64,000 bases of DNA, taken from contig NC_043016.1 of assembly GCF_006345805.1 (NCBI RefSeq), positions 15,500,001 to 15,564,000 on the forward strand, read 5' to 3'. Shown here piece by piece: positions 1-64,000 of this stretch. Position 1 is the first letter of the stretch. Each line of letters begins with the position of its first letter. Made by a program: the position numbers and the translations under genes. The notes below the pieces were generated by a model that was not told where the DNA came from, ran no database searches, and was given only the letters and a program-made list of their open reading frames with translations. This DNA comes from Octopus sinensis. Taxonomy: Eukaryota.

Positions 1-540
1 AGTAGAGGCCCGATTATATCTATATGGTTGTGTTGAAAACGTGAGTCCGGTGTTGTGAAAGTGCCGAGAGGCGATTTTACATGTCGCTGTATTTTTGCCT
101 TTTGGCAGGCAGCGCAACTCTTAGCCCAAGCGCGGATGTCCTTGTTAATGTTCGTCCACACAAAACGAGTTGTTATCATCTTCTGTGTGGAACGAATGCC
201 GGGATGTGATAGACGGTGAAGGGCAGTGAAAATACGTCGTCGGTGTTGTTCGTGGACGCAAGGACGTTCGTGGCCAGTGGAGGTATCGCACCATATGTGA
301 CAGGTAGAAGATAATGGGAGCAGATGGAACTTGAGGGACGACGAATTCCGTAGCCTATTAAAAGCTCTCCGTCGTTTTCCTGATCCGCCGTGATCAGCTG
401 AAGATCGATAGTCTCTGGAGCGTGCAGAGCGTTAAGATGGACGCGTGAAAGCGCGTCGGTTGCAGTGTTGTCGGAGCCTTTGATATGCCGAATATCTGTG
501 GAATATTGGGCGATGAAGTCGGGGTGACGGACTTCTCTGG
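1..540 (-). mobile_element. Ty3/Gypsy LTR-retrotransposon pol fragment (RNase H end to integrase zinc-binding region), frameshifted
   Basis: ORF 176-559 has FIAQYSTDIRHIKGSDNTATDALSR (RNase H C-terminal motif). Another frame continues as LHGLSHPGIRSTQKMITTRFVWTNINKDIRAWAKSCAACQKAK (integrase HHCC). Confidence 0.9.
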
Positions 541-3956: not shown

Positions 3957-3965
3957 CTGACGAAA

Positions 3966-4392
3966 ATGGCTCGAGATGCTAAAGTTGAGCTTAAAAAGCA
4001 AGTGACTTTACTGCAAGGAGTAGGTATAATCGTGGGTATTATAATAGGATCGGGAATATTTGTATCTCCCGTAGGCATTTTACAAAATGTGAAATCAGTT
4101 GGTCTTAGTCTTTTAATGTGGGCAATATGCGGACTGTACAACATGCTTTGTGCCCTGTGCTATGCAGAGTTAGGAGCTTCTATACCCGAATCCGGAGGCG
4201 AATACATCTATATTAAAAGAGCCTTCGGAGATTTTGCGGGATTCGTATGTCTTTGGATAAATTTTCTGCTAGTGTGTCCCGTTGGTATTGCTGCTGCTTC
4301 CCTAATATTTACAACATACTTGCTCAAACCAATTTTCTCCGATTGTGATATTCCAGAGAGTGGACTCCGATTGATATCAGCATTAGTTGTCA
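3966..4392 (+). CDS. SLC7 light-chain (L-type/heteromeric) amino-acid transporter, coding exon 1 (TM1-TM3/4)
   Basis: LKKQVTLLQGVGIIVGIIIGSGIFVSP, ALCYAELGASIPESGGEYIYI and KPIFSDC (conserved Cys for the heavy-chain disulfide). Kozak-like AAAATGG; donor GTAAGT at 4393 (phase 1). The ORF beyond 4392 is intronic. Confidence 0.97.
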
Positions 4393-4668
4393 GTAAGTAT
4401 TGTCTTATTCAAAGCTATCAGTTCAATACTTCGTCTTGTTTTTATTTTGAATTGCCAACTCCGTATCCTTCTAAATGTGTTTCCCGATTTATGTTGCTCG
4501 TCTCTACTTTTTGTTTTATGCAAGTTATATATTTTGATTTTCGGTATTTATTCTTAATTTGTTTATATTATTCTATGGTTGTATTTAATCCTAAAATGTA
4601 ATTAAATGAACCTTATTTGCCCACGTATTAAACTAATAAATGTATATTATGTATGTATGAAAGTCTGT

Positions 4669-4701: not shown

Positions 4702-6410
4702 CTATATGGAAAAACTGTTTGTATTACAGCCAGTACTTCAATAACGGTAAGTTCAGCACTTAGATACGAGATACGAAAATTCCTTGCCGATAATAAATTG
4801 GGATATTGAACAAATATTGAGTCATACCAAAACATGTCATATAAATATAAGTGTGACCGTCAAATTTTGTCTTTTATTGTCGATTCTATTCCAAAATAAA
4901 ACTTTGTCTATTTTAGGCATTTAGCATAAATTGCAGTTAAGTATTTTTGAAAGAAAATAAAGAAAGAAAAAGGAATAAGCGGGAAGGAAAATTATAAAAG
5001 TTGAGTAAATAACTTTGTAGCAGCTGTTGGGGGGAAAATATTTCACTTTGTGGTTTCTTTTTTCCTTTTGTGCGTGTGTGTGTGTAATAGTAGTAGTTAG
5101 TAGTAACAAACGAATTTACCAGCCTGGGTGCTTTGGTATTTTCATTCTATTTTGCTTGACAAAAAAGCAAAAACCACGTTGTTCGTGTCGCTAGGAACAG
5201 GATTCAAATTTCCCGTCCCACTGTCAGGCAGAAGGAGAGATACGTTCAACACTGTAGGGCAAAATGTAAATAAAAAGAAAATTAAATGTTTTAGGCACAG
5301 AAGTCTATCACAGAAGAAAACAACATAATGTTATGGTAGCAATTAAGAAAGTATTCAGTCTACAGGCTTCTATTTTTACTAGTTTACTTATTTGATGTCC
5401 AGTTTGTCTCTTGTTTTCATTTATTCCTTAATTAGTTTATTGTATTCGTTGGGTTTTGTTTTGGAGGGTGAGATATAATTAAATAAAAACTTTGAAACGT
5501 GTGTTTGGATATTTTTACTTATCGAAAAAGAAAGGACAGAAAATATGAACACCGAGTGCGTTGTGTTTATTTCTTACTACAACAATAATCCTTTTAACTG
5601 GAAACACCCTTCGTGTCAGCTTTGTTTTAATCTCTTGTTTAACTTATTTAGAGTTATAAAAACCTTATATCTTTATTATATCGAGTCCTTATGTCTATCT
5701 TTGTTCTCTGCAGCAGTGCGTGTATTTAATCTCCGCTCATAGCAGCTAAAACACGTGTACCCGTATTTTACAAAAGTCCTTCTGTTTATTTATTTATTTA
5801 TTTATTTGTATTTGCCTCATAATACTTAATGAAACAATTTTCTAAATTTGATAAAGGTCCTTACCTAAATCATCCTATCTTTCCTTTTTCGCATAGCAAA
5901 GAAATGTCTAAAAAAAATTGTCAGCCCGCCACGTGGTCCCAACGAACAAAATGGGGTACTTGTCTATTGTCGTGGTCCCGGTTTCGCACACGCGAATTCG
6001 CGCGCGCGCGCCAGACGTAGGTACTCGATACTCGAGATCCTAGGAGGTGACTTGCGCATGCGCAGTGCAGAATTCGCGCATGCGCGTTAAACCCCCCCCT
6101 AAAAAAAAGGTGTTGGATTTCACTAAAAATATATATGTGTGTGTGTGTGTGTGTATATATAACATTTTCAATTTTACACAAAAAAATTACATAGTCGCTT
6201 TCCTCGCGGATTTACAGATAAATGAATTAATTACTATTTTACAGAATAAAATTAATGAATTAATTATATAAATTAAATAATTCTTGAAAATTAATTAATA
6301 TTAATAATATTTTTTGAACAAAGTAAATAATTTATAAAACTTGGTTAATAATTTTTTTTACACAAACGCGAACGTATATAATTTGGTAAACTTAATGAAT
6401 TAATTTCTTC

Positions 6411-6795
6411 TCATCATCATCATCGTTTAACGTCCGTTCTCCATGCCAGCATGGGTTGGACGGTTCGACCGGGGATCTGGGAAGCCAGAAGGCTGCACCA
6501 GACTCCAGTCTTATCTGGCAATGTTTCTACAGCTGGATGCCCTTCCTAACGCCAACCACTCCGAGAGTGTAGTGGGTGCTTTTTACATGCCACCCGCACA
6601 GGTGCCAGTCGAGGCGGCTCTGACATCGGCCACGATTCGGATAGTGCTTTTTACGTACCACCAGTCCAGGGGTCCTGGCATTTGCCGGGTGTCACACTTG
6701 CCCCAACATGTCTTCGCAAGCAAAGGGGGTTGGCATGGGTGCCTGTCGTGGGATGAGGTTCGATATCAACTTCGCTTGCCTCAACAGGTCTTTGT
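6411..6795 (-). mobile_element. RTE-type retroelement 3' end ((GAT)n tail) inside the left arm
   Basis: Same tail as 16500, 18595, 29345, 42342 and 57255; mirrored at 7840-8222. Confidence 0.85.
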
Positions 6796-7839
6796 GTATA
6801 AATGTATAAATTTTTCGCACTAAATTCTTTCCGTAGAATTTATCAAAAAACGCGCAAAATATTCCGTAGAATTTATCAAATTAAAAAACGCAAAATTAAT
6901 ATATTTTTTGAAATTGCAAATTATTTAGAATATAAAACAAATGAAGTTAAATTTTTAAAATAAATGTCATATACTTATACTCTGTAAGGTGCTGTGTTCA
7001 CACTTCAATTTACTATTTTCTAGAAATGTTGCTTTTCTAATTGAAACAATTTTTCTCAATCTCCATTTAAAAGTCCATCATGTCTCTTGAGACATATCAA
7101 AATGAACAACTTTGAATTACGCGGCGGCGGTGGTGGTGTGAGGTTCTAATTTTTTTTTCTGATCTCTCTTTGCCCCCCTAGATGGAGGTGTGGTGGGGAG
7201 ACAGATGAAAGATGTTTCATTCTCTACTATGTATGTATATATATATATATCTATATATATATATATATTTCTTAAACCTACACGATATAGTCTATAAATT
7301 TGGGATGTTTTTGAAAGATAATATATTTTGTCATCAGAATATATATACTTTCTCACACTACAATTAAGATATATTTATTTTAAATCGTTCATCTTTTCCC
7401 GCGACAACAAAAATTGGGCGCGAAAATTTTTCTAAATATTAGCGGAATGAACAACTGAGATAAAGAGAGATCAGAAAAAAAAATTAGAACCTCACACCAC
7501 CACCGCCGCCGCGTAATTCAAAGTTGTTCATTTTGATATGTCTCAAGAGACATGATGGACTTTTAAATGGAGATTGAGAAAAATTGTTTCAATTAGAAAA
7601 GCAACATTTCTAGAAAATAGTAAATTGAAGTGTGAACACAGCACCTTACAGAGTATAAGTATATGACATTTATTTTAAAAATTTAACTTCATTTGTTTTA
7701 TATTCTAAATAATTTGCAATTTCAAAAAATATATTAATTTTGCGTTTTTTAATTTGATAAATTCTACGGAATAATTTTGCGCGTTTTTTGATAAATTCTA
7801 CGGAAAGAATTTAGTGCGAAAAATTTATACATTTATACA

Positions 7840-8222
7840 CAAAGACCTGTTGAGGCAAGCGAAGTTGATATCGAACCTCATCCCACGACAGGCACCCATG
7901 CCAACCCCCTTTGCTTGCGAAGACATGTTGGGGCAAGTGTGACACCCGGCAAATGCCAGGACCCCTGGACTGGTGGTACGTAAAAAGCACTATCCGAATC
8001 GTGGCCGATGCCAGAGCCGCCTCGACTGGCACCTGTGCGGGTGGCATGTAAAAAGCACCCACTACACTCTCGGAGTGGTTGGCGTTAGGAAGGGCATCCA
8101 GCTGTAGAAACATTGCCAGATAAGACTGGAGTCTGGTGCAGCCTTCTGGCTTCCCAGATCCCCGGTCGAACCGTCCAACCCATGCTGGCATGGAGAACGG
8201 ACGTTAAACGATGATGATGATG
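7840..8222 (+). mobile_element. RTE-type retroelement 3' end inside the right arm (mirror of 6411-6795)
   Basis: Reverse complement of the left copy; the mirrored ORFs 6443-6823 and 7811-8191 differ by one residue. Confidence 0.85.
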
Positions 8223-8682
8223 AGAAGAAATTAATTCATTAAGTTTACCAAATTATATACGTTCGCGTTTGTGTAAAAAAAATTATTAACCAAGTTTTAT
8301 AAATTATTTACTTTGTTCAAAAAATATTATTAATATTAATTAATTTTCAAGAATTATTTAATTTATATAATTAATTCATTAATTTTATTCTGTAAAATAG
8401 TAATTAATTCATTTATCTGTAAATCCGCGAGGAAAGCGACTATGTAATTTTTTTGTGTAAAATTGAAAATGTTATATATACACACACACACACACACACA
8501 TATATATTTTTAGTGAAATCCAACACCTTTTTTTGGGGGGGGGGTTAACGCGCATGCGCGAATTCGCGTGTGCGAAACCGGGACCACGACAATAGACAAG
8601 TACCCAAAATGGAAAAGGCATCGTCCCGGAGCATAACGAATGAGATTTATACGATTTACCCATACATATGCATATAAAAAGC

Positions 8683-8804
8683 GGCGGAGGTAAAGAATAC
8701 GCACACCATCCGTTTTCGGCGTAACCAAAGCCCTAATCTTAACCCTAAACCCTTATCCTGACCGTAACCCTAAACACCGGGTGTACGTATTCTTTACTTT
8801 CGCT
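8683..8804. mobile_element. Small MITE with ~25-bp imperfect TIRs and internal AACCCT-like repeats
   Basis: GGCGGAGGTAAAGAATACGCACACC ... GGTGTACGTATTCTTTACTTTCGCT; internal CCCTAA variants; flanks TAAAAAGC/ATAAAAGC are a near-TSD. Confidence 0.6.
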
Positions 8805-10403
8805 ATAAAAGCTGTTGTCGCACAATGAAACTATGATAAACTAAGAATAAGAAAGTGACTGCAGATTCTCCCTTAATACACTATTCATTCCTTCAGATGA
8901 TATAAAGGCTCCCTCACATATTTCTTTGCATTATCGTATTGTTTCTAATTTCGGCGCCAAGTCAGCAAAGGTATTTTTACCGGTGCCTAATGATTCGGCC
9001 AATTCAATATGCAAAAAAATTCTAATGTTTATTCTATTGAGTTGTCAGATTAATTCATATCTTTTCCCCCCATTTATTTTAATACTTATTTTTCGATAGT
9101 TTTTTAGCCAGTGATATACCCTCCTTCAGTCTTCACAATTCCTTGTCAACGCCCCACTAGCTTGTTTTTGCTTCATAGAATTCATCGGTTTTGCTTCGTA
9201 GAATTCATCGAAACATTTTAACAGCTTGCAGATTATGAGAGAGACACTGAGAAAAAGTGATAATGTAAAGGCGGCATATAATGAAAATTCGGTGGATGCT
9301 GTAGAATTTCCCAACCGAGCTTCTGGGCAGTATTTTTTGACCATTTAGCGATGAAGGGGTTGCGATTTGTCTTTTTCGTGGTACCTATGCACTAAGATTT
9401 CGGTTCTTACTGCTCTGTGACTCCTATGTGTAACTGAAACCCCGATAACCCCTTTCAGTTATAATGCCCTCTTTGTACACGACACAGATATCACGAGTGG
9501 CTTTGGTGATTTTGGAACCTCGACTGCAAACGCAGAGATGCAGGTGTTGGAAAGATTCTTTTTATTTTCCTACTTGGCATTCCATCATCATTGTCTCAAA
9601 AGATATTAAAGGAATTCAAATTTCAAAGACGATAAGCAAAAGTTGTAGGGGAAAAAATAGAGTTACAAAAAAAAAGAAAGAAACCAAGCACAACAATAAA
9701 AATATTTTTCATGTTAATTCAAATAACATTTGGAAGAAATGAATGAATTTATTTGGCAACCCAGTGTATTACCTGAAGAGCCAGATTTGGTCTGGATCTC
9801 TCTGAGTAAGGTGTGATACAACAATAGGGTAGCCAACCCCATTCAGAAATAATGAAGATTGACATCGCTTCATTGCTGTGTCACTACAGTACCTTTTCCA
9901 GGGAACACCTGGCCAAATTTGATGCCTGCTCTCGCAGACGAAACGGTTCCCTTGGTCAGATGGTCTGTGTTTTGCCATAGTGAATGGGTGTGATTGACAT
10001 TTGTCACTTAATGTATTCTTTACAATGTCGTTATTATGGACCCCATCCGAGATGCAAGACAACATTCAAGTCCACAAAATTTTGGTTGGAGCAGTTGTTT
10101 GTAAAGAATTGTTGTACAGACCTCTTTGCTTTCGCAACAAAGTCCATGTAGTTCCCCTGCAGCAAAGTAGGCAGTGACTCAGGGTAGGATTTTTCATCTG
10201 CTCCACAAAGCAATCTACTTCTTTCACCTGAAATGAAATGTGAGAGTGGAGTGAGAGAGAGTTGCTGCTCTCCTGTAAATTTTATGAAGTGAATGAAAGT
10301 AGTTTCAAAGAGAACTAACCCTCCAGTTTCAGGTGTTTAGAACTGAGACATTTTTCTGTGATAATTATGATTATGGTTACATGTGTGTGTGTGTATATAT
10401 ATA

Positions 10404-48393: not shown

Positions 48394-48880
48394 GTATGAA
48401 GCTACGTTAAATTTCACTACATTTTCTTTTCATTTAGTTTAGAGGTTGCAGTTTCCTGGGCAGTGATTTTAGATCTGCTACGTATTAGATGCTTATATAT
48501 ATGTGTGTGTGTGTTGTGTTTATCCCCTGTTGCTGCTTGACAACAATTTTCGCTTGTTTATGTCCCCATTACTAAGCAGTTCAAAAAAGAGCCTGACAGA
48601 ATTAATAGCAGGCTTTAAAGAACAAAGTACTGGGGTAATTTCTTCAAATAAAACTTTCAAGGTGGTACCCCCGTATGAGTGCAGTCTAATACAGAAACAA
48701 TAAAAGATATATGTAGGTATGTAAGGTAGATGTGTGTATATATATATACATATATATATATACATACACACACACTATATACACTATATATAATTAATAT
48801 TAATATTAGGGAAGTTATTTCCGAGTCCACAAGGGAGAGAAGTTCAATTTAGTGGTACTAAAATGAATTACTCTATTATA

Positions 48881-49160
48881 TATATATAATATATAGATAG
48901 GTTTAAGAGACAGAATCACCCTGAAGCAACTCAATCATCATTGAATGACATTATCCACGATAGGTACATATAGGACTAAATATCAAAATTATATATACAA
49001 TTCTTATTTCAAATCATAAGAAATAAGAATTGTAGGTATTAATTTTGATAATTTTAATATTTAGTCCTATATGTACCTATCGTGGATAATGTCATTCAAT
49101 GATGATTGAGTTGCTTCAGGGTGATTCTGTCTCTTAAACTTATCTATATATATTATATAT
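48881..49160. repeat. Near-perfect ~280-bp hairpin in a TA tract
   Basis: Arms 48881-48992 and 49048-49160, plus an inner TACAATTCTTATTTC/GAAATAAGAATTGTA stem. Confidence 0.92.
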
Positions 49161-49290
49161 ATATGTGTGTATATATATATATTATATATGTATATATATT
49201 ATATATGTATGTATATATATATACATTCAAAATGTGACCACGTGTGTACCGTTGGCGATTTTTTTTTCTCTGGATCTTTCCTTCTCCTAT

Positions 49291-49568: not shown

Positions 49569-49949
49569 AGTTGAAAACATGTGGAACACAAATATAAAAA
49601 GTAGAAGAGAAATACCTTCATTTCATATAGTTTAATACCTTTTTATAAATATATACATAATGTATGGATGTCATGAAATCCAACCGGTTTTCGCTATTTA
49701 AATTAGCTTTTCAAGGGACGTTGTACAGTAATCAATCTCTCATGACAAACATCCAAAATGATGAGACCTCTTTGTCATGAGAATTGATTACTGTACAACG
49801 TCCCTTGAAAAGCTAATTTAAATAGCGAAAACCGGTTGGATTTCATGACATCCATACATTATGTATATATTTATAAAAAGGTATTAAACTATATGAAATG
49901 AAGGTATTTCTCTTCTACTTTTTATATTTGTGTTCCACATATTTTCAAC

Positions 49950-49950
<1 letters not shown>
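49569..49950. repeat. Near-perfect inverted repeat (~180-bp arms, 21-nt loop), probably an inverted Penelope pLTR pair
   Basis: Arms 49569-49749 and 49771-49950; each carries CTTGAAAA-GCTA(ATTTAAA)TAGC-GAAA-ACCGGT, a hammerhead-like variant. Confidence 0.9.
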
Positions 49951-58829: not shown

Positions 58830-61450
58830 TATGCAGGTTCCTTCTACAGTTAAGAAGTGGCACTTCCTCACACAGCTGTCCTCATCCACACCTAACACAT
58901 GGCCATACCAGTGCAGTCACCTCTCTTACACAACACATTTGATGCTTCTTATGCTCAACTTTTCTCTCAGGGCACTTACACTCTGCCATGTATGCACACT
59001 GACATTACACATCCAGCGGATGATACCAGCTTCATTTCTCTCAAGCCTACCCATGTCCTCAGCAGTCATGGCCCATGTTTCATTGCCGTGTAATATGGCA
59101 GTTTGCACACATGCATCATACAGTCTACCTTTCACCCTGAATGAGAGTCCCTTAGTTGCCAGCAAAAGTAGGATCTCCCTGATCTTTGCTCAGGCTAGTT
59201 GCTGCATTCTCAGAGCAACCACCCCTACTACAGACTTGGCCACCTAGGTAGCAAAAGCTATTAACTACTTCTAGTTTCTTCCCTTAGCATGTGATGGAAT
59301 CTGTTTTCTGTACATCTTCAGTGTTTTTTGCTCCAGTGCATCTGCTACACACAAAAACTATTTTCGTGGTCATCAGCATAGAAGAGCTCCCAGGGGCATC
59401 CTGTTTTGAATTCCTCTGTTATTGCCTGGAGGACAATGATGAATAAAGGGGACTGAGGGCTGAGCCTTGGTGTACACCTACTTCTACCCAGAATTCTTCA
59501 CTATATTCGTTGCCAATCCTAACCTTGCTGACAGCCTCTCTGTATAGAGCATGTACAGCCTTATTAGCCATTCGTCAATCTCCAGTTTCCACATAGACCA
59601 CCAGATAAGGGATCGGGGACCCTGTCAAAGGCTTTCTCCAAGTCCACAAAAGCTATAGAGGGGTTTATCTTTAGCTAGGTACTTCTCCTGCAGTTGTCGG
59701 ACCAGGAATATAGCATCAGTGGTGCTTCTACCTGGCACAAAACCGAACTGCATCTCATCTAAGCAAATTCTCTCCCTAATGAGATGGGTTATGACCCTCT
59801 CTGTGACCTTCATCACCTGATCCAACAGTTTAATACCCCTGTAGTTATTTCTATCTAGAGCATCACCCTTACTCTTGTAGCAGTTGACTATGGTGCTGCT
59901 ACGCCAGTCATTGGGTATGACTCCATTATGAACTACCTGGTTTACAATGCGGGTAACTAGGCCATAGCCCACATAGCCAGCTGTTTTAAGCATCTCAGCA
60001 GTGATTCCTGATGGGCCGGGGTCTTTACCTGGTTTCATATCCTTAATTGCCTTAACTACAAGGGAGCTGTCTATTCGGGTAGCTGGTCCCTCTACTGGGT
60101 CAACATTTGGCAGGCTCTCCTCCTCCCATTCATTCTCCTCATTCAGCAGTCTTTCATAATGGCTTCTCCAAGCCTCTTTCAGTAAAAGCAAGTGCTCCAT
60201 CATCCATGCGGACACATTTCTCTCCTGTAACATCACTATTTTCTCTGACACACTGTCTGGCAATCCGAAATACCTCAGCTCTTTGGTCCTCACGTCGCTG
60301 GACATTGGCAAACTTCTTTTCTGCTACATCTTTGGTTATGTATACCTGCCGCCCAGCCTCCCTTTTGGCTACCTGGTACGGTTCCCTGCTACCCCCATCC
60401 CTCCAGGCTTTCCAGGCCCGTCTCTTTGCACTAATGGCTTTGTCTACTGCACTATTCCACCACCACGTAACTCTAGGTCTGGAAGGGACTTTGCACCATC
60501 CACAGACTTGGTCTGTGGCACTCAGCAAGCTGTCCCGTAGGAATTCCCAGCTACCTTCTATGTCCGACGTCTGAAGCTCCTCCTCCCTCTCATCAAATTT
60601 CTTGATGAGGATGTCCCTAAATCTCTGACCATGTGAAGGGTTCTTTAACTTCCAAATCCTTCTTTTCTGGATTGGTCTGTTTCTTGGAGTCCTTCTGGCC
60701 TCAAGCCTAAAGTCACTAATGATTAGCCTATGCTGAGGGATACATTCTTCACCCGGGAGGGTCTTTGTATTTAAGAGCGACCCTGCATCCCACTGTCTGG
60801 TGAGGATGAAGTCTATTTGGCTAGCGGAGTCTCCTGACTGATAAGTTATAAGATGGCAGTCAGGCTTCCTGAAGTTAGTGTTGGAGATTAAAAGGTTACA
60901 TGCATCACAGAATTCCAATAATCTAGTTCCCTCATCATTTCTGGTGCCAATACGATGGCCACCGTGTACCCCAGTGAAGATACCCGATTCCCGCCCAACA
61001 TTAAGGTCTCCACCCACAAAGATGAGGTCCTTGCCACTAGTCTTTGAGGTAGCCTGTAGAAGGGTATCATAAAAGTGGTCCTTCTGATCATTTGGTAGTC
61101 CCGCTTGTGGGGCATAGGCGGAGATAATCGTAACTGTGCCACTCTGTAGGACCAACCTGAGCTTAAGCACTCTATCACAAACCCTGACAACCTCTATGAC
61201 CTTATCCACCCATTTCTCCGCAAGGAGAATGCCTACACCATCCATGTTACCTTGCCTGAAGACTTTGTACCTATGTGCCTTGCCTGTGAGGACCCTAACT
61301 GAAGCACCTCTCCATCTTACCTCTTGTATGCAGCATACATCAACCCGTCTTCTCTCAAGCATCTCTACAATCTCACTAGACCTACCTTTCAATGTACCAA
61401 CATTGACAGTGCCAACTCTGAAAACTGGCAAGGAGATGTGGGGAGGAGGG
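58830..61450 (-). mobile_element. RTE-clade LINE (AP endonuclease + RT), frameshifted and internally deleted
   Basis: ORF 60154-61431: TVNVGTL..VCCIQEVRW..ISAYAP..GGDLN..SQIDFIL..QHR (APE). ORF 59625-60311: MKPGKDPGPSGITAEML..NYRGIKLL..QFGFVPGRSTTDAIF (RT). ORF 58926-59165 is C-terminal. Confidence 0.95.
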
Positions 61451-61489
61451 GAGCAATTCAGCGCCTGAAAAGAAGAGGGTTGTTGTTGT

Positions 61490-62060
61490 GGTGGGAGTTA
61501 AACACAGGGGTTATTAAAATTCTTTTATTTCCTACATATGTTTCGAAGACAACATTGATATTATTCCAAAGGCATAAAATGGTGTAAAACAATGTAATTT
61601 TCTCATCAGGGAAAGGGAGAAAGGAACCAAACTCAATAAGGCATTTTAACAGAATGTGATGGATGTGTATAATGATGAACAGAACGCTATTAAGTTTTTT
61701 TAAAAAACCATTTGAGGATATAACCTCAAATGTAGTCTATAGAAAGAGAAGGGGTAAAGGAAAGAAATAAGCGGAAAACTAATAAAGGAGAAATATAGAG
61801 TGATATGTGAATTAAAATAAAAGCTTAAAAACTTGGAAATAGATATATTCTAGTGGAAGTGAAATGTAAGAAGAAAATCAATGTTCAAATTATATAGAAT
61901 GGTGTTAAAATGTCTTATTGATGAGTTTGGTTTCTTTCTCTCTTTCTCTGATGAGAAGATTTCATGAATGGAAATTAAGATTAATTTGTAGCCGAAATAG
62001 TACTGAATCTTTTGATACCCCATGCATCAAAATCTGTAACTCAGTTTTGGAATGGATAAG
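61490..62060 (-). mobile_element. Penelope-like 3' end/pLTR
   Basis: 61745-61900 is homologous to 22975-23135 (the 3' end of the PLE) and is followed by a hammerhead. Confidence 0.7.
61528..61614 (-). ncRNA. Type I hammerhead ribozyme with intact core
   Basis: TTTCC-CTGATGA-GAAAATTACATTG...CAATGTTGTCTTC-GAAA-CATATG-TA-GGAAA: 5-bp stem I, extended stem II, palindromic stem III, GUA cleavage triplet. Confidence 0.78.
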
Positions 62061-63104: not shown

Positions 63105-64000
63105 AGCAGAAAAGTCTTCACATCCGATATGGAATAGCTGAAATACTTGCAAACTCCATAGTCCAATGGTATCTATGGTCATTATGTACTAAACCCAGTT
63201 TCATTGCCACCTCTTTGTAACTATGGCTAACTGCATCATTAATAGTCCTCATATCTTCAAATGATGTAGCTTCGGGAATATGAGATAGTAAAGCTCTCAG
63301 ATAGAATTGCTCCTGTTCCTTTGGTGAAACAAAGTAGATACGCCCAATTGGGTGTGTTATTATTTTTTCACTATTATTCCATGTGTAAAATTCAGGGAAA
63401 TCAGTAGAGTGTAATGTATGTGCAAATAAGTTAACTGGTGATTCCCGGTTAACTTGCATCCATCCACTGAGTGTGGACCTGTCATGTGTGTGGATAACAG
63501 GTTCAATATCATCATCGTCATTAAAGTAAATGTATTGCTGTTGGGGTAAATGAACTGTAAGCTGTTGGACTGCAGGATGTGAACTCTGTAATTTGAACCC
63601 TAAAATCCTCCGGACTGCCTTTGATGAGGATACATAGCAGCCATTGATGTAATTTTCAGTTTCATCTTTGTGTGTTTGTTGTGCATTGGTTTGTCCCCTA
63701 ATATTGACCGTCACCCGATCATGGCCTTTATGAATATATTTGCTAATATATTTAACTGATTTTACAGATGCACATATCTCTACATTACAATGACATTCCA
63801 TATTTGACTTAAAAGATGGGGGCATATGATACTACTGAACGACTATCTAATTCAACATTAGTCTATGTAAATGTAAAACCATTATTTCAACGTTGGTAAA
63901 GTGGATTGCCATTATTACTGTGGAATGTATTTTCCTGAAAGTCTCTAGGGAAATGTCTTTTACATTTCCCATCAACAATACATATTGCATTGGGTTTATC
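63105..64000 (-). mobile_element. Helitron Rep/helicase fragment (degenerate)
   Basis: NPNAICIVDGKCKRHFP..LYQR..DSRSVVSY; HCNVEICASVKSVKYISKYIHKGHDR; AVQQLTVHLP; IGRIYFVSPKEQEQFYLRALL..ATSFEDMRTIN; contains stops and a frameshift. Confidence 0.93.

What the first reader, a model, noticed from the sequence alone, without database searches (positions are those of the whole stretch)
5947..8612. 2.65-kb foldback transposon: ~1.15-kb near-identical arms, GG..CC termini and a perfect 8-bp TSD
Seen: arm 5955-7171 is mirrored by 7462-8604 with only a few differences (one substitution in the nested repeat, homopolymer changes, one ~75-bp indel). The spacer is 290 bp and non-coding; CAAAATGG flanks both ends. 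Known: GG termini with an 8-bp TSD typify Merlin (IS1016-related), while MULE/Foldback elements have long TIRs. Arms over 1 kb would be exceptional for Merlin. The TSD and the arm differences argue against a read-foldback assembly artefact. Possibly an undescribed young family.
Basis: partly seen in the sequence, partly recalled or inferred. Interest (0 to 1): 0.72.

Follow-up and report, generated by a model that had tools for sequence, protein, structure and literature searches.

The report
Long-armed Merlin transposon in octopus
This is a real, recently inserted, gene-less copy of a Merlin-type jumping gene in an octopus-type genome; its two 1.2-kb mirror-image arms are likely kept alike by DNA repair copying one arm onto the other, a behaviour already described for a fly transposon, so it is a clear new example and not a new kind of element.

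Summary
Observation confirmed: arms 5955-7171 and 7462-8604 (99.4% alike, one 76-bp deletion), 290-bp spacer, CAAAATGG on both sides. It is not an assembly artefact: a contig from another run shows the empty site with one CAAAATGG. The terminus occurs 125 times in the genome. Of 59 two-ended copies, 39 have exact 8- or 9-bp duplications (control 0 of 3536). Copies with the same ends carry a Merlin transposase (DDE_Tnp_IS1595), intact in two. So this is a non-autonomous Merlin. The arms evolve in concert: a SINE-like insert sits mirrored in both, variants private to one copy occur in both arms, and arm divergence tracks the unique centre (Mantel rho 0.80). Autonomous copies lengthen their arms with 316-bp arrays built from the transposase 3' end. 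'Exceptional for Merlin' fails: Repbase zebrafish Merlins have 1-kb TIRs with mirrored arrays, and Drosophila Galileo shows the same arm growth. The scan noted similar long-armed Merlins earlier on other genomes. What is added is a young, polymorphic family with an intact enzyme in which arm-to-arm copying can be counted.

The parts
5947..5954 (.). Left target-site duplication CAAAATGG
   Evidence: single copy in the empty allele
5955..7171 (+). Left arm (long TIR), 1217 bp, starts GGTACTTG
5955..6374 (+). Outer about 420 bp of the arm, shared (80-92%) with transposase-bearing copies; likely holds the transposase binding sites (inferred)
6372..6385 (+). Junction of a 37-bp deletion between direct repeats, present in both arms of this copy and in none of the other 24 aligned copies
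6411..6799 (-). Nested high-copy SINE-like repeat with a (GAT)n tail, left arm; site is empty in older relative L118
   Evidence: the label SINE is from structure and recall, not a library match
6601..6608 (+). Junction of a second 37-bp deletion (GGTGCCAG repeats), in both arms here and in one arm only of 3 other copies
7172..7461 (.). 290-bp non-coding spacer, remnant of the DNA upstream of the transposase gene (81-90% to autonomous copies), with a TA microsatellite
7462..8604 (-). Right arm (long TIR), 1143 bp, ends CAAGTACC; lacks 76 bp near 8566
7835..8223 (+). Mirror copy of the nested SINE-like repeat, right arm
   Evidence: one substitution against the left copy, 6623/8011
8605..8612 (.). 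Right target-site duplication CAAAATGG

Best explanation
The element is a non-autonomous Merlin (IS1016/IS1595-type) cut-and-paste DNA transposon that is absent from this site in another sequenced sample, is likely moved by the 294-aa transposase of sister copies with the same ends, and has kilobase arms that are likely kept alike by occasional arm-to-arm gene conversion. Shown: shared GG...CC termini, 8/9-bp duplications, an empty allele, autonomous sister copies with an intact DDE triad, a spacer derived from the region upstream of the transposase gene, and concerted variation of the two arms. Inferred: an ancestor lost the transposase gene by internal deletion; a SINE-like element inserted once into one arm; repair of a break in one arm then used the other arm (of the same copy or of a sister copy) as template, which copied the insert, point changes and small deletions to the mirror position. 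Tracts that ran past the inner arm border lengthened the arms: in the autonomous lineage they recruited the transposase 3' end, later amplified as 316-bp units. Conversion is partial and occasional, not a rebuild at every jump.
For: Termini and TSD: 39 of 59 two-ended copies have exact TSDs (21 of 9 bp, 18 of 8 bp), 5 more have one mismatch; cross-locus control 0 of 3536. Transposase: Pfam PF12762 E 1.5e-20; D137, D198, E239 kept in 115/120, 114/117 and 115/118 homologues; 8 copies 97-100% alike over the 1.8-kb centre; unbroken frames in L108 and L114, both with exact 9-bp TSDs. Empty site: run X7 contig covers 5822-5954 and goes on with window 8613-8642 exactly. Concerted arms in 25 full copies: 5.8 substitutions/kb within a copy against 9.8 between copies, same-side equal to opposite-side; 9 of 12 doubleton sites lie in both arms of one copy (about 6 events in 5 copies; 2% expected per random pair); subfamily sites are in both arms of 8-10 copies; both subfamily haplotypes occur on side B (L051, L060). 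The insert sits at the same site in 84 of 86 arm motifs examined, and the 2 without it are in the older copy L118. In 8 autonomous copies, cross-side unit distance follows the unique centre (Spearman 0.80, Mantel p 0.001); units differ 0.9% within a copy and 2.7% between copies. L114 has 1442-bp arms at 99.7% that include about 220 codons of the transposase.
Against: 15 of 59 two-ended copies have no TSD. Most variant sites (102 of 127) are single-arm singletons, so homogenisation is slow, or many are sequencing errors. L057 and L061 share side-specific variants, so asymmetry can be inherited. Variants private to one copy and seen in both arms could come from assembly polishing; no raw long reads were available to exclude this. 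The inner about 340 bp of the arm (6830-7140) has little match in the autonomous copies examined, so the direct parent was not found. No contig spans the filled element; the one filled-junction contig (X4) reaches only 28 bases into it and may be the source sample. Transposase activity and expression were not tested.
Confidence: 0.85

Rival explanations
1. The arms are alike only because of one or two recent arm duplications in founder copies; there is no repeated conversion, and the both-arm private variants are made by consensus polishing of the assembly.
For: 102 of 127 variant sites are singletons; only assembled sequence was examined; all runs laid were contigs.
Against: Several subfamilies each have their own variants on both sides, and these track the unique centre. 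That needs one copying event per lineage at least. Single-arm copies show that haplotype is not tied to side. Copies are mosaics of shared and unshared sites, not collapsed to identity.
Confidence: 0.1
2. One arm is rebuilt from the other at each transposition, through a hairpin or panhandle intermediate.
For: Several copies have arms within 1-2 substitutions/kb; L114 arms are 99.7% alike; L110 has 433 bp of host flank mirrored beyond both termini.
Against: L057 and L061 inherited the same side-specific differences. Diagnostic sites near the arm ends are mixed in 5 of 14 and 6 of 14 carriers, against 1 of 11 mid-arm, as partial tracts would give.
Confidence: 0.04
3. Read-foldback or assembly artefact.
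For: Perfect palindromes are a known long-read artefact (recalled); no contig spans the whole element.
Against: Empty allele with a single TSD; 25 full copies with the same layout and different TSDs on many chromosomes; arm differences.
Confidence: 0.01
4. A MULE or Drosophila FB-type foldback element.
For: Long TIRs and 9-bp TSDs are typical of MULEs (recalled).
Against: The only transposase found between these termini is DDE_Tnp_IS1595; 18 of 39 exact TSDs are 8 bp.
Confidence: 0.01

Closest known systems
Merlin superfamily (IS1016-related), as summarised in PMC8101967 (passages)
   Same: 5'-GG termini, 8- or 9-bp TSD, DDE_Tnp_IS1595 transposase, internal tandem repeats
   Different: Arms of 1.0-1.65 kb against the 24-462 bp first reported; arms contain a mirrored retroposon or pieces of the transposase gene
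Repbase Merlin-N5_DR, Merlin-1_DR, Merlin-2_DR of zebrafish (PMC8101967 S1 Table, part 1 of 2)
   Same: 1000-bp TIRs (1_DR, N5_DR); tandem arrays near both ends (113 bp x 5.2 twice; 79 bp x 12.5 and x 9.7)
   Different: The table gives no account of arm homogenisation or of array units derived from the transposase gene; I saw no sequences of these families
Galileo (P superfamily, foldback-like) of Drosophila mojavensis and D. willistoni (PMC3573991: passages and Discussion; PMC4168063: passages)
   Same: TIRs lengthened by tandem repeats, by recruited internal sequence including the ORF end, and by a TE inserted in one TIR and passed to the other; two-TIR derivatives; recombination or conversion proposed
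   Different: Other superfamily and TSD (7-8 bp); no functional Galileo transposase was found there, whereas this family has intact frames. PMC4168063 called ORF recruitment unique to Galileo so far
Recently active Merlin families of Octopus vulgaris (PMC13282606, passages and supplement search)
   Same: 2 families, 11 insertions, 28,998 bp (mean about 2.6 kb, close to this element's size)
   Different: No structure described in the passages seen; consensus sequences are on Zenodo and could not be compared, so identity is untested

Membership tests
Merlin superfamily | TIRs starting 5'-GG | tested here: met
   GGTACTTG...CAAGTACC in the window and nearly all paired copies
Merlin superfamily | 8- or 9-bp TSD | tested here: met
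   39 of 59 exact (18 of 8 bp, 21 of 9 bp), control 0 of 3536; empty site
Merlin superfamily | IS1016/IS1595-type transposase in autonomous members with the same ends | tested here: met
   PF12762, E 3.6e-20 (L040) and 1.5e-20 (L108); the window copy itself has none (non-autonomous)
Merlin superfamily | Conserved DDE triad | tested here: met
   D137, D198, E239 conserved in over 95% of 120 homologues; assignment as the catalytic triad follows the known motif blocks (recalled)
Merlin superfamily | Transposase mobilises these ends | not testable with these tools
   Inferred from shared termini and TSD sizes
Foldback-like structural class (Galileo, FB) | Long TIRs with internal tandem repeats of variable number | tested here: met
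   Met at family level: 1-12 units of about 316 bp on the 5' side and 0-7 on the 3' side in 10 autonomous copies. The window copy has long arms without an array
MULE / FB-NOF | MULE transposase between the termini | tested here: not met
   Only PF12762 found; the one other long ORF between arms is an ankyrin retrocopy
MITE | Under about 600 bp and very high copy number (as stated in PMC3573991) | tested here: not met
   2.65-2.9 kb, 125 termini
An existing Repbase, Dfam or Zenodo octopus Merlin family | Sequence identity to a library consensus | not testable with these tools
   No repeat library held; PMC13282606 lists 18 Merlin families in O. vulgaris

The most novel reading that the evidence does not exclude
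A currently active Merlin family whose arms evolve in concert by frequent arm-to-arm copying, the first outside Galileo shown to pull the end of its own transposase gene into both arms. The mirrored gene-end arrays would fold any read-through RNA into kilobase hairpins around the ORF (self-silencing or A-to-I editing substrate), and the family would be a countable natural assay for conversion between inverted repeats, with tracts that can even run into host DNA (L110).
Probability: 0.35. Interest if true: 0.62.

Novelty: new member of a known kind. Interest (0 to 1): 0.42.

Why it matters
Long TIRs have arisen in several unrelated transposon superfamilies, and the proposed cause (repair copying between arms) rests mostly on dead Galileo copies. 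Here a young, insertion-polymorphic family with intact transposase frames shows all three Galileo-type routes of arm growth, plus site counts of homogenisation, so rate, tract length and the effect of arm length on transposition could be measured. For the host, dozens of 1.3-kb perfect hairpins are likely substrates for rearrangement and, where transcribed, for double-stranded-RNA pathways (inferred, untested). For annotators: TIR length does not classify such elements, and these palindromes are real.

Tried and rejected
Rfam scan of 5900-8700: only a sub-threshold microsatellite hit. The 130-aa frame in the nested repeat has no Pfam family; rejected as a gene. No RNA holder was listed; this says nothing on expression. 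Search for TSD partners between different loci (inversions between copies): 2 cross matches in AT-rich flanks, treated as chance. Spacer variants gave only weak support for subfamilies (4 of 25 spacers not extracted). Genome search for later exons of the neighbouring permease gene scored only 20 of 5704 candidates and found none. L033 as a Pack-type capture: rejected in favour of a retrocopy (spliced, single copy). My notebook gave L033 an 8-bp TSD; one search corrects this to 9 bp with one mismatch. Left out of counts: the 25 terminal hits not listed (a few recovered), L123 (duplicate of L053), L078 in the TSD count (degenerate right end), L114 in unit distances; the side assignment of L035 was undetermined. 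Literature searches listed no paper whose title or abstract opening describes foldback-type Merlin arms or their concerted evolution; the library lacks most subscription journals and Repbase Reports.

Full report
Observation. The inverted repeat is as described: left arm 5955-7171, right arm 7462-8604, 99.37% alike over 1105 bp, spacer 290 bp. The differences are one 76-bp deletion in the right arm between short direct repeats, one substitution in the nested repeat and four homopolymer or dinucleotide changes. CAAAATGG flanks both ends.

A family, and a real insertion. A terminal 19-mer has 125 exact hits in the own genome G000 (63 forward, 62 reverse; reversed control 0; only 100 listed). I fetched 80 stretches around these and around transposase hits. 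Among 59 distinct two-ended copies, 21 have an exact 9-bp and 18 an exact 8-bp duplication, 5 have one mismatch and 15 have none; 0 of 3536 cross-locus flank pairs match. The usual non-autonomous copy is about 2.87 kb with about 1.29-kb arms. Shorter copies keep one arm and a stub of the other; 10 of 14 such junctions examined overlap by 2-7 bases (rough BLAST estimate). A contig from run X7 runs from 5822 to 5954 and continues exactly with window 8613-8642, which is the empty site with one CAAAATGG. A contig from X4 holds the filled left junction but only 28 bases into the element, and may be the source sample. No spanning read was available.

The enzyme. Copy L040, with the same termini, holds a frame matching Pfam DDE_Tnp_IS1595. 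Eight copies are 97-100% alike over this centre (counts are lower bounds). L108 encodes an unbroken 294-aa protein whose D137, D198 and E239 are kept in over 95% of 120 homologues; it has an exact 9-bp TSD. L114 also has an unbroken frame; the others are frameshifted or have altered ends, which may partly be assembly indels. The best named relatives are octopus proteins (98% to one labelled Octopus sinensis by its source, 64% to O. bimaculoides). GG ends, 8/9-bp TSDs and this transposase define Merlin (PMC8101967, passages). The window copy shares its outer 420 bp with the autonomous copies, and its spacer matches DNA upstream of the transposase gene. It is therefore an internally deleted derivative (inferred); its direct parent was not found.

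How the arms behave. First, the nested SINE-like repeat sits at the same site in 84 of 86 arm motifs examined (83 by rule, plus L034 with a variant tail); the two without it are in an older relative, L118, which shows the empty site. One insertion at mirror positions implies copying between arms. Second, in 25 full copies the two arms of a copy differ by 5.8 substitutions/kb against 9.8 between copies, with no same-side advantage. Nine of 12 doubleton sites lie in both arms of one copy, about six events in five copies. The window copy has two 37-bp deletions in both arms, one seen in no other aligned copy. Third, autonomous copies of 3.3-8.4 kb carry arrays of an about 316-bp unit on both sides (1-12 and 0-7 units); part of the unit matches the transposase 3' end at 84-89%. 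Units differ by 0.9% within a copy and 2.7% between copies, whichever side, and cross-side unit distance follows the unique centre (rho 0.80, Mantel p 0.001, 8 copies). This argues against an assembler collapsing side-specific haplotypes, as does finding both haplotypes on side B of single-arm copies. Fourth, L114 has 1442-bp arms at 99.7% that include about 220 transposase codons, a likely intermediate of arm growth. Against a simple picture: 102 of 127 variant sites are singletons; L057 and L061 inherited side-specific variants; sites near the arm ends are often mixed. This fits occasional, partial conversion. Polishing artefacts cannot be excluded for the private variants.

Mechanism. Shown: termini, TSDs, empty allele, sister transposase, concerted variation. 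Inferred: trans-mobilisation by the sister enzyme; break repair templated by the opposite arm; extension when tracts overrun the arm border. Age: half the between-copy distance is about 0.5%; with the calibration quoted in PMC13282606 (0.09 = 25 million years) that is roughly 1.4 million years or less, since errors inflate it (inference).

Surroundings. The insertion lies 1.56 kb downstream of an amino-acid-permease exon (PF13520) that ends at a GTAAGT donor at 4393, so it is likely intronic; later exons were not located.

Comparison. Kilobase arms are not new for Merlin: S1 Table of PMC8101967 (part 1 of 2 read) lists zebrafish Merlin-1_DR and Merlin-N5_DR with 1000-bp TIRs, and arrays near both ends in N5_DR and 2_DR. 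The dynamics match Galileo: tandem expansion, recruitment of internal sequence and proposed conversion (PMC3573991, passages and Discussion), and recruitment of the ORF end, there called unique to Galileo, plus transfer of an inserted TE to both TIRs (PMC4168063, passages). PMC13282606 reports 2 recently active Merlin families in O. vulgaris averaging about 2.6 kb per insertion (passages and one supplement search); its Zenodo library may already hold this family and could not be seen. Eight paper searches (listings only, apart from the four papers named) showed no account of concerted arm evolution in Merlin. Feschotte 2004 was not read; it is cited through PMC8101967. MULE and FB features are recalled. 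Earlier notes of this scan describe long-armed Merlins on other genomes, one with a mirrored SINE; they are unchecked leads, and one pointed me to PMC4168063.

Verdict. A genuine, young, non-autonomous Merlin with foldback-like arms: a new member of a known kind. Its value is as an unusually clean, possibly still active case of convergent arm growth and arm-to-arm homogenisation. Interest 0.42.

Noticed in passing
L033:1569-3687 (G000:C1, about 171.815-171.818 Mb): A family copy carries a 2.1-kb spliced retrocopy of an ankyrin-repeat gene in its spacer. It matches three exons on C9326 at 98-100% with introns removed, and its 3' end stops at the (GAT)n tail of a SINE-like repeat in the source gene, which suggests LINE priming on a SINE tail. 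One copy found.
   Followed up: partly
L110:1456-1888 and 8071-8505: 433 bp of host flank is mirrored beyond both termini of an autonomous copy, with no TSD: a conversion tract running outside the element, an aberrant transposition, or an assembly artefact.
   Followed up: partly
L114:3148-6454: Older autonomous copy (about 92% in the gene) with 1442-bp arms at 99.7% that include two-thirds of the transposase gene; one full frame is intact.
   Followed up: partly
L115:3945-5346: A related copy has its own array of about 182-bp units made from the transposase 3' end, a second independent amplification.
   Followed up: no
window 3957-4392: Amino-acid permease (SLC7-like, label recalled) exon with donor GTAAGT at 4393; likely host gene of the insertion.
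   Followed up: partly
window 8680-8810: Small imperfect hairpin with TAACCC-like repeats just right of the element, high copy in contigs; likely another MITE-like repeat.
   Followed up: no
window 59628-61497 (-): LINE remnant with an endonuclease domain (PF03372) and RT-linked frame.
   Followed up: no
window 3-431 (-) and 63121-63831 (-): Frames resembling an LTR-retrotransposon integrase region and a Helitron Rep fragment by eye; the latter had no Pfam hit.
   Followed up: no
window 48877-49163 and 49569-49950: Two short near-perfect inverted repeats (116 bp at 97%, 168 bp at 99%).
   Followed up: no
L062 (G000:C23) and L056 (G000:C18): Two full copies 1.8 kb apart with different TSDs (possible local hop); a copy with a duplicated right end and the same TSD twice.
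   Followed up: no
L070 and L122 (G000:C30): A more distant Merlin (72% in the gene) with 455-bp inverted repeats lies next to family copies.
   Followed up: no
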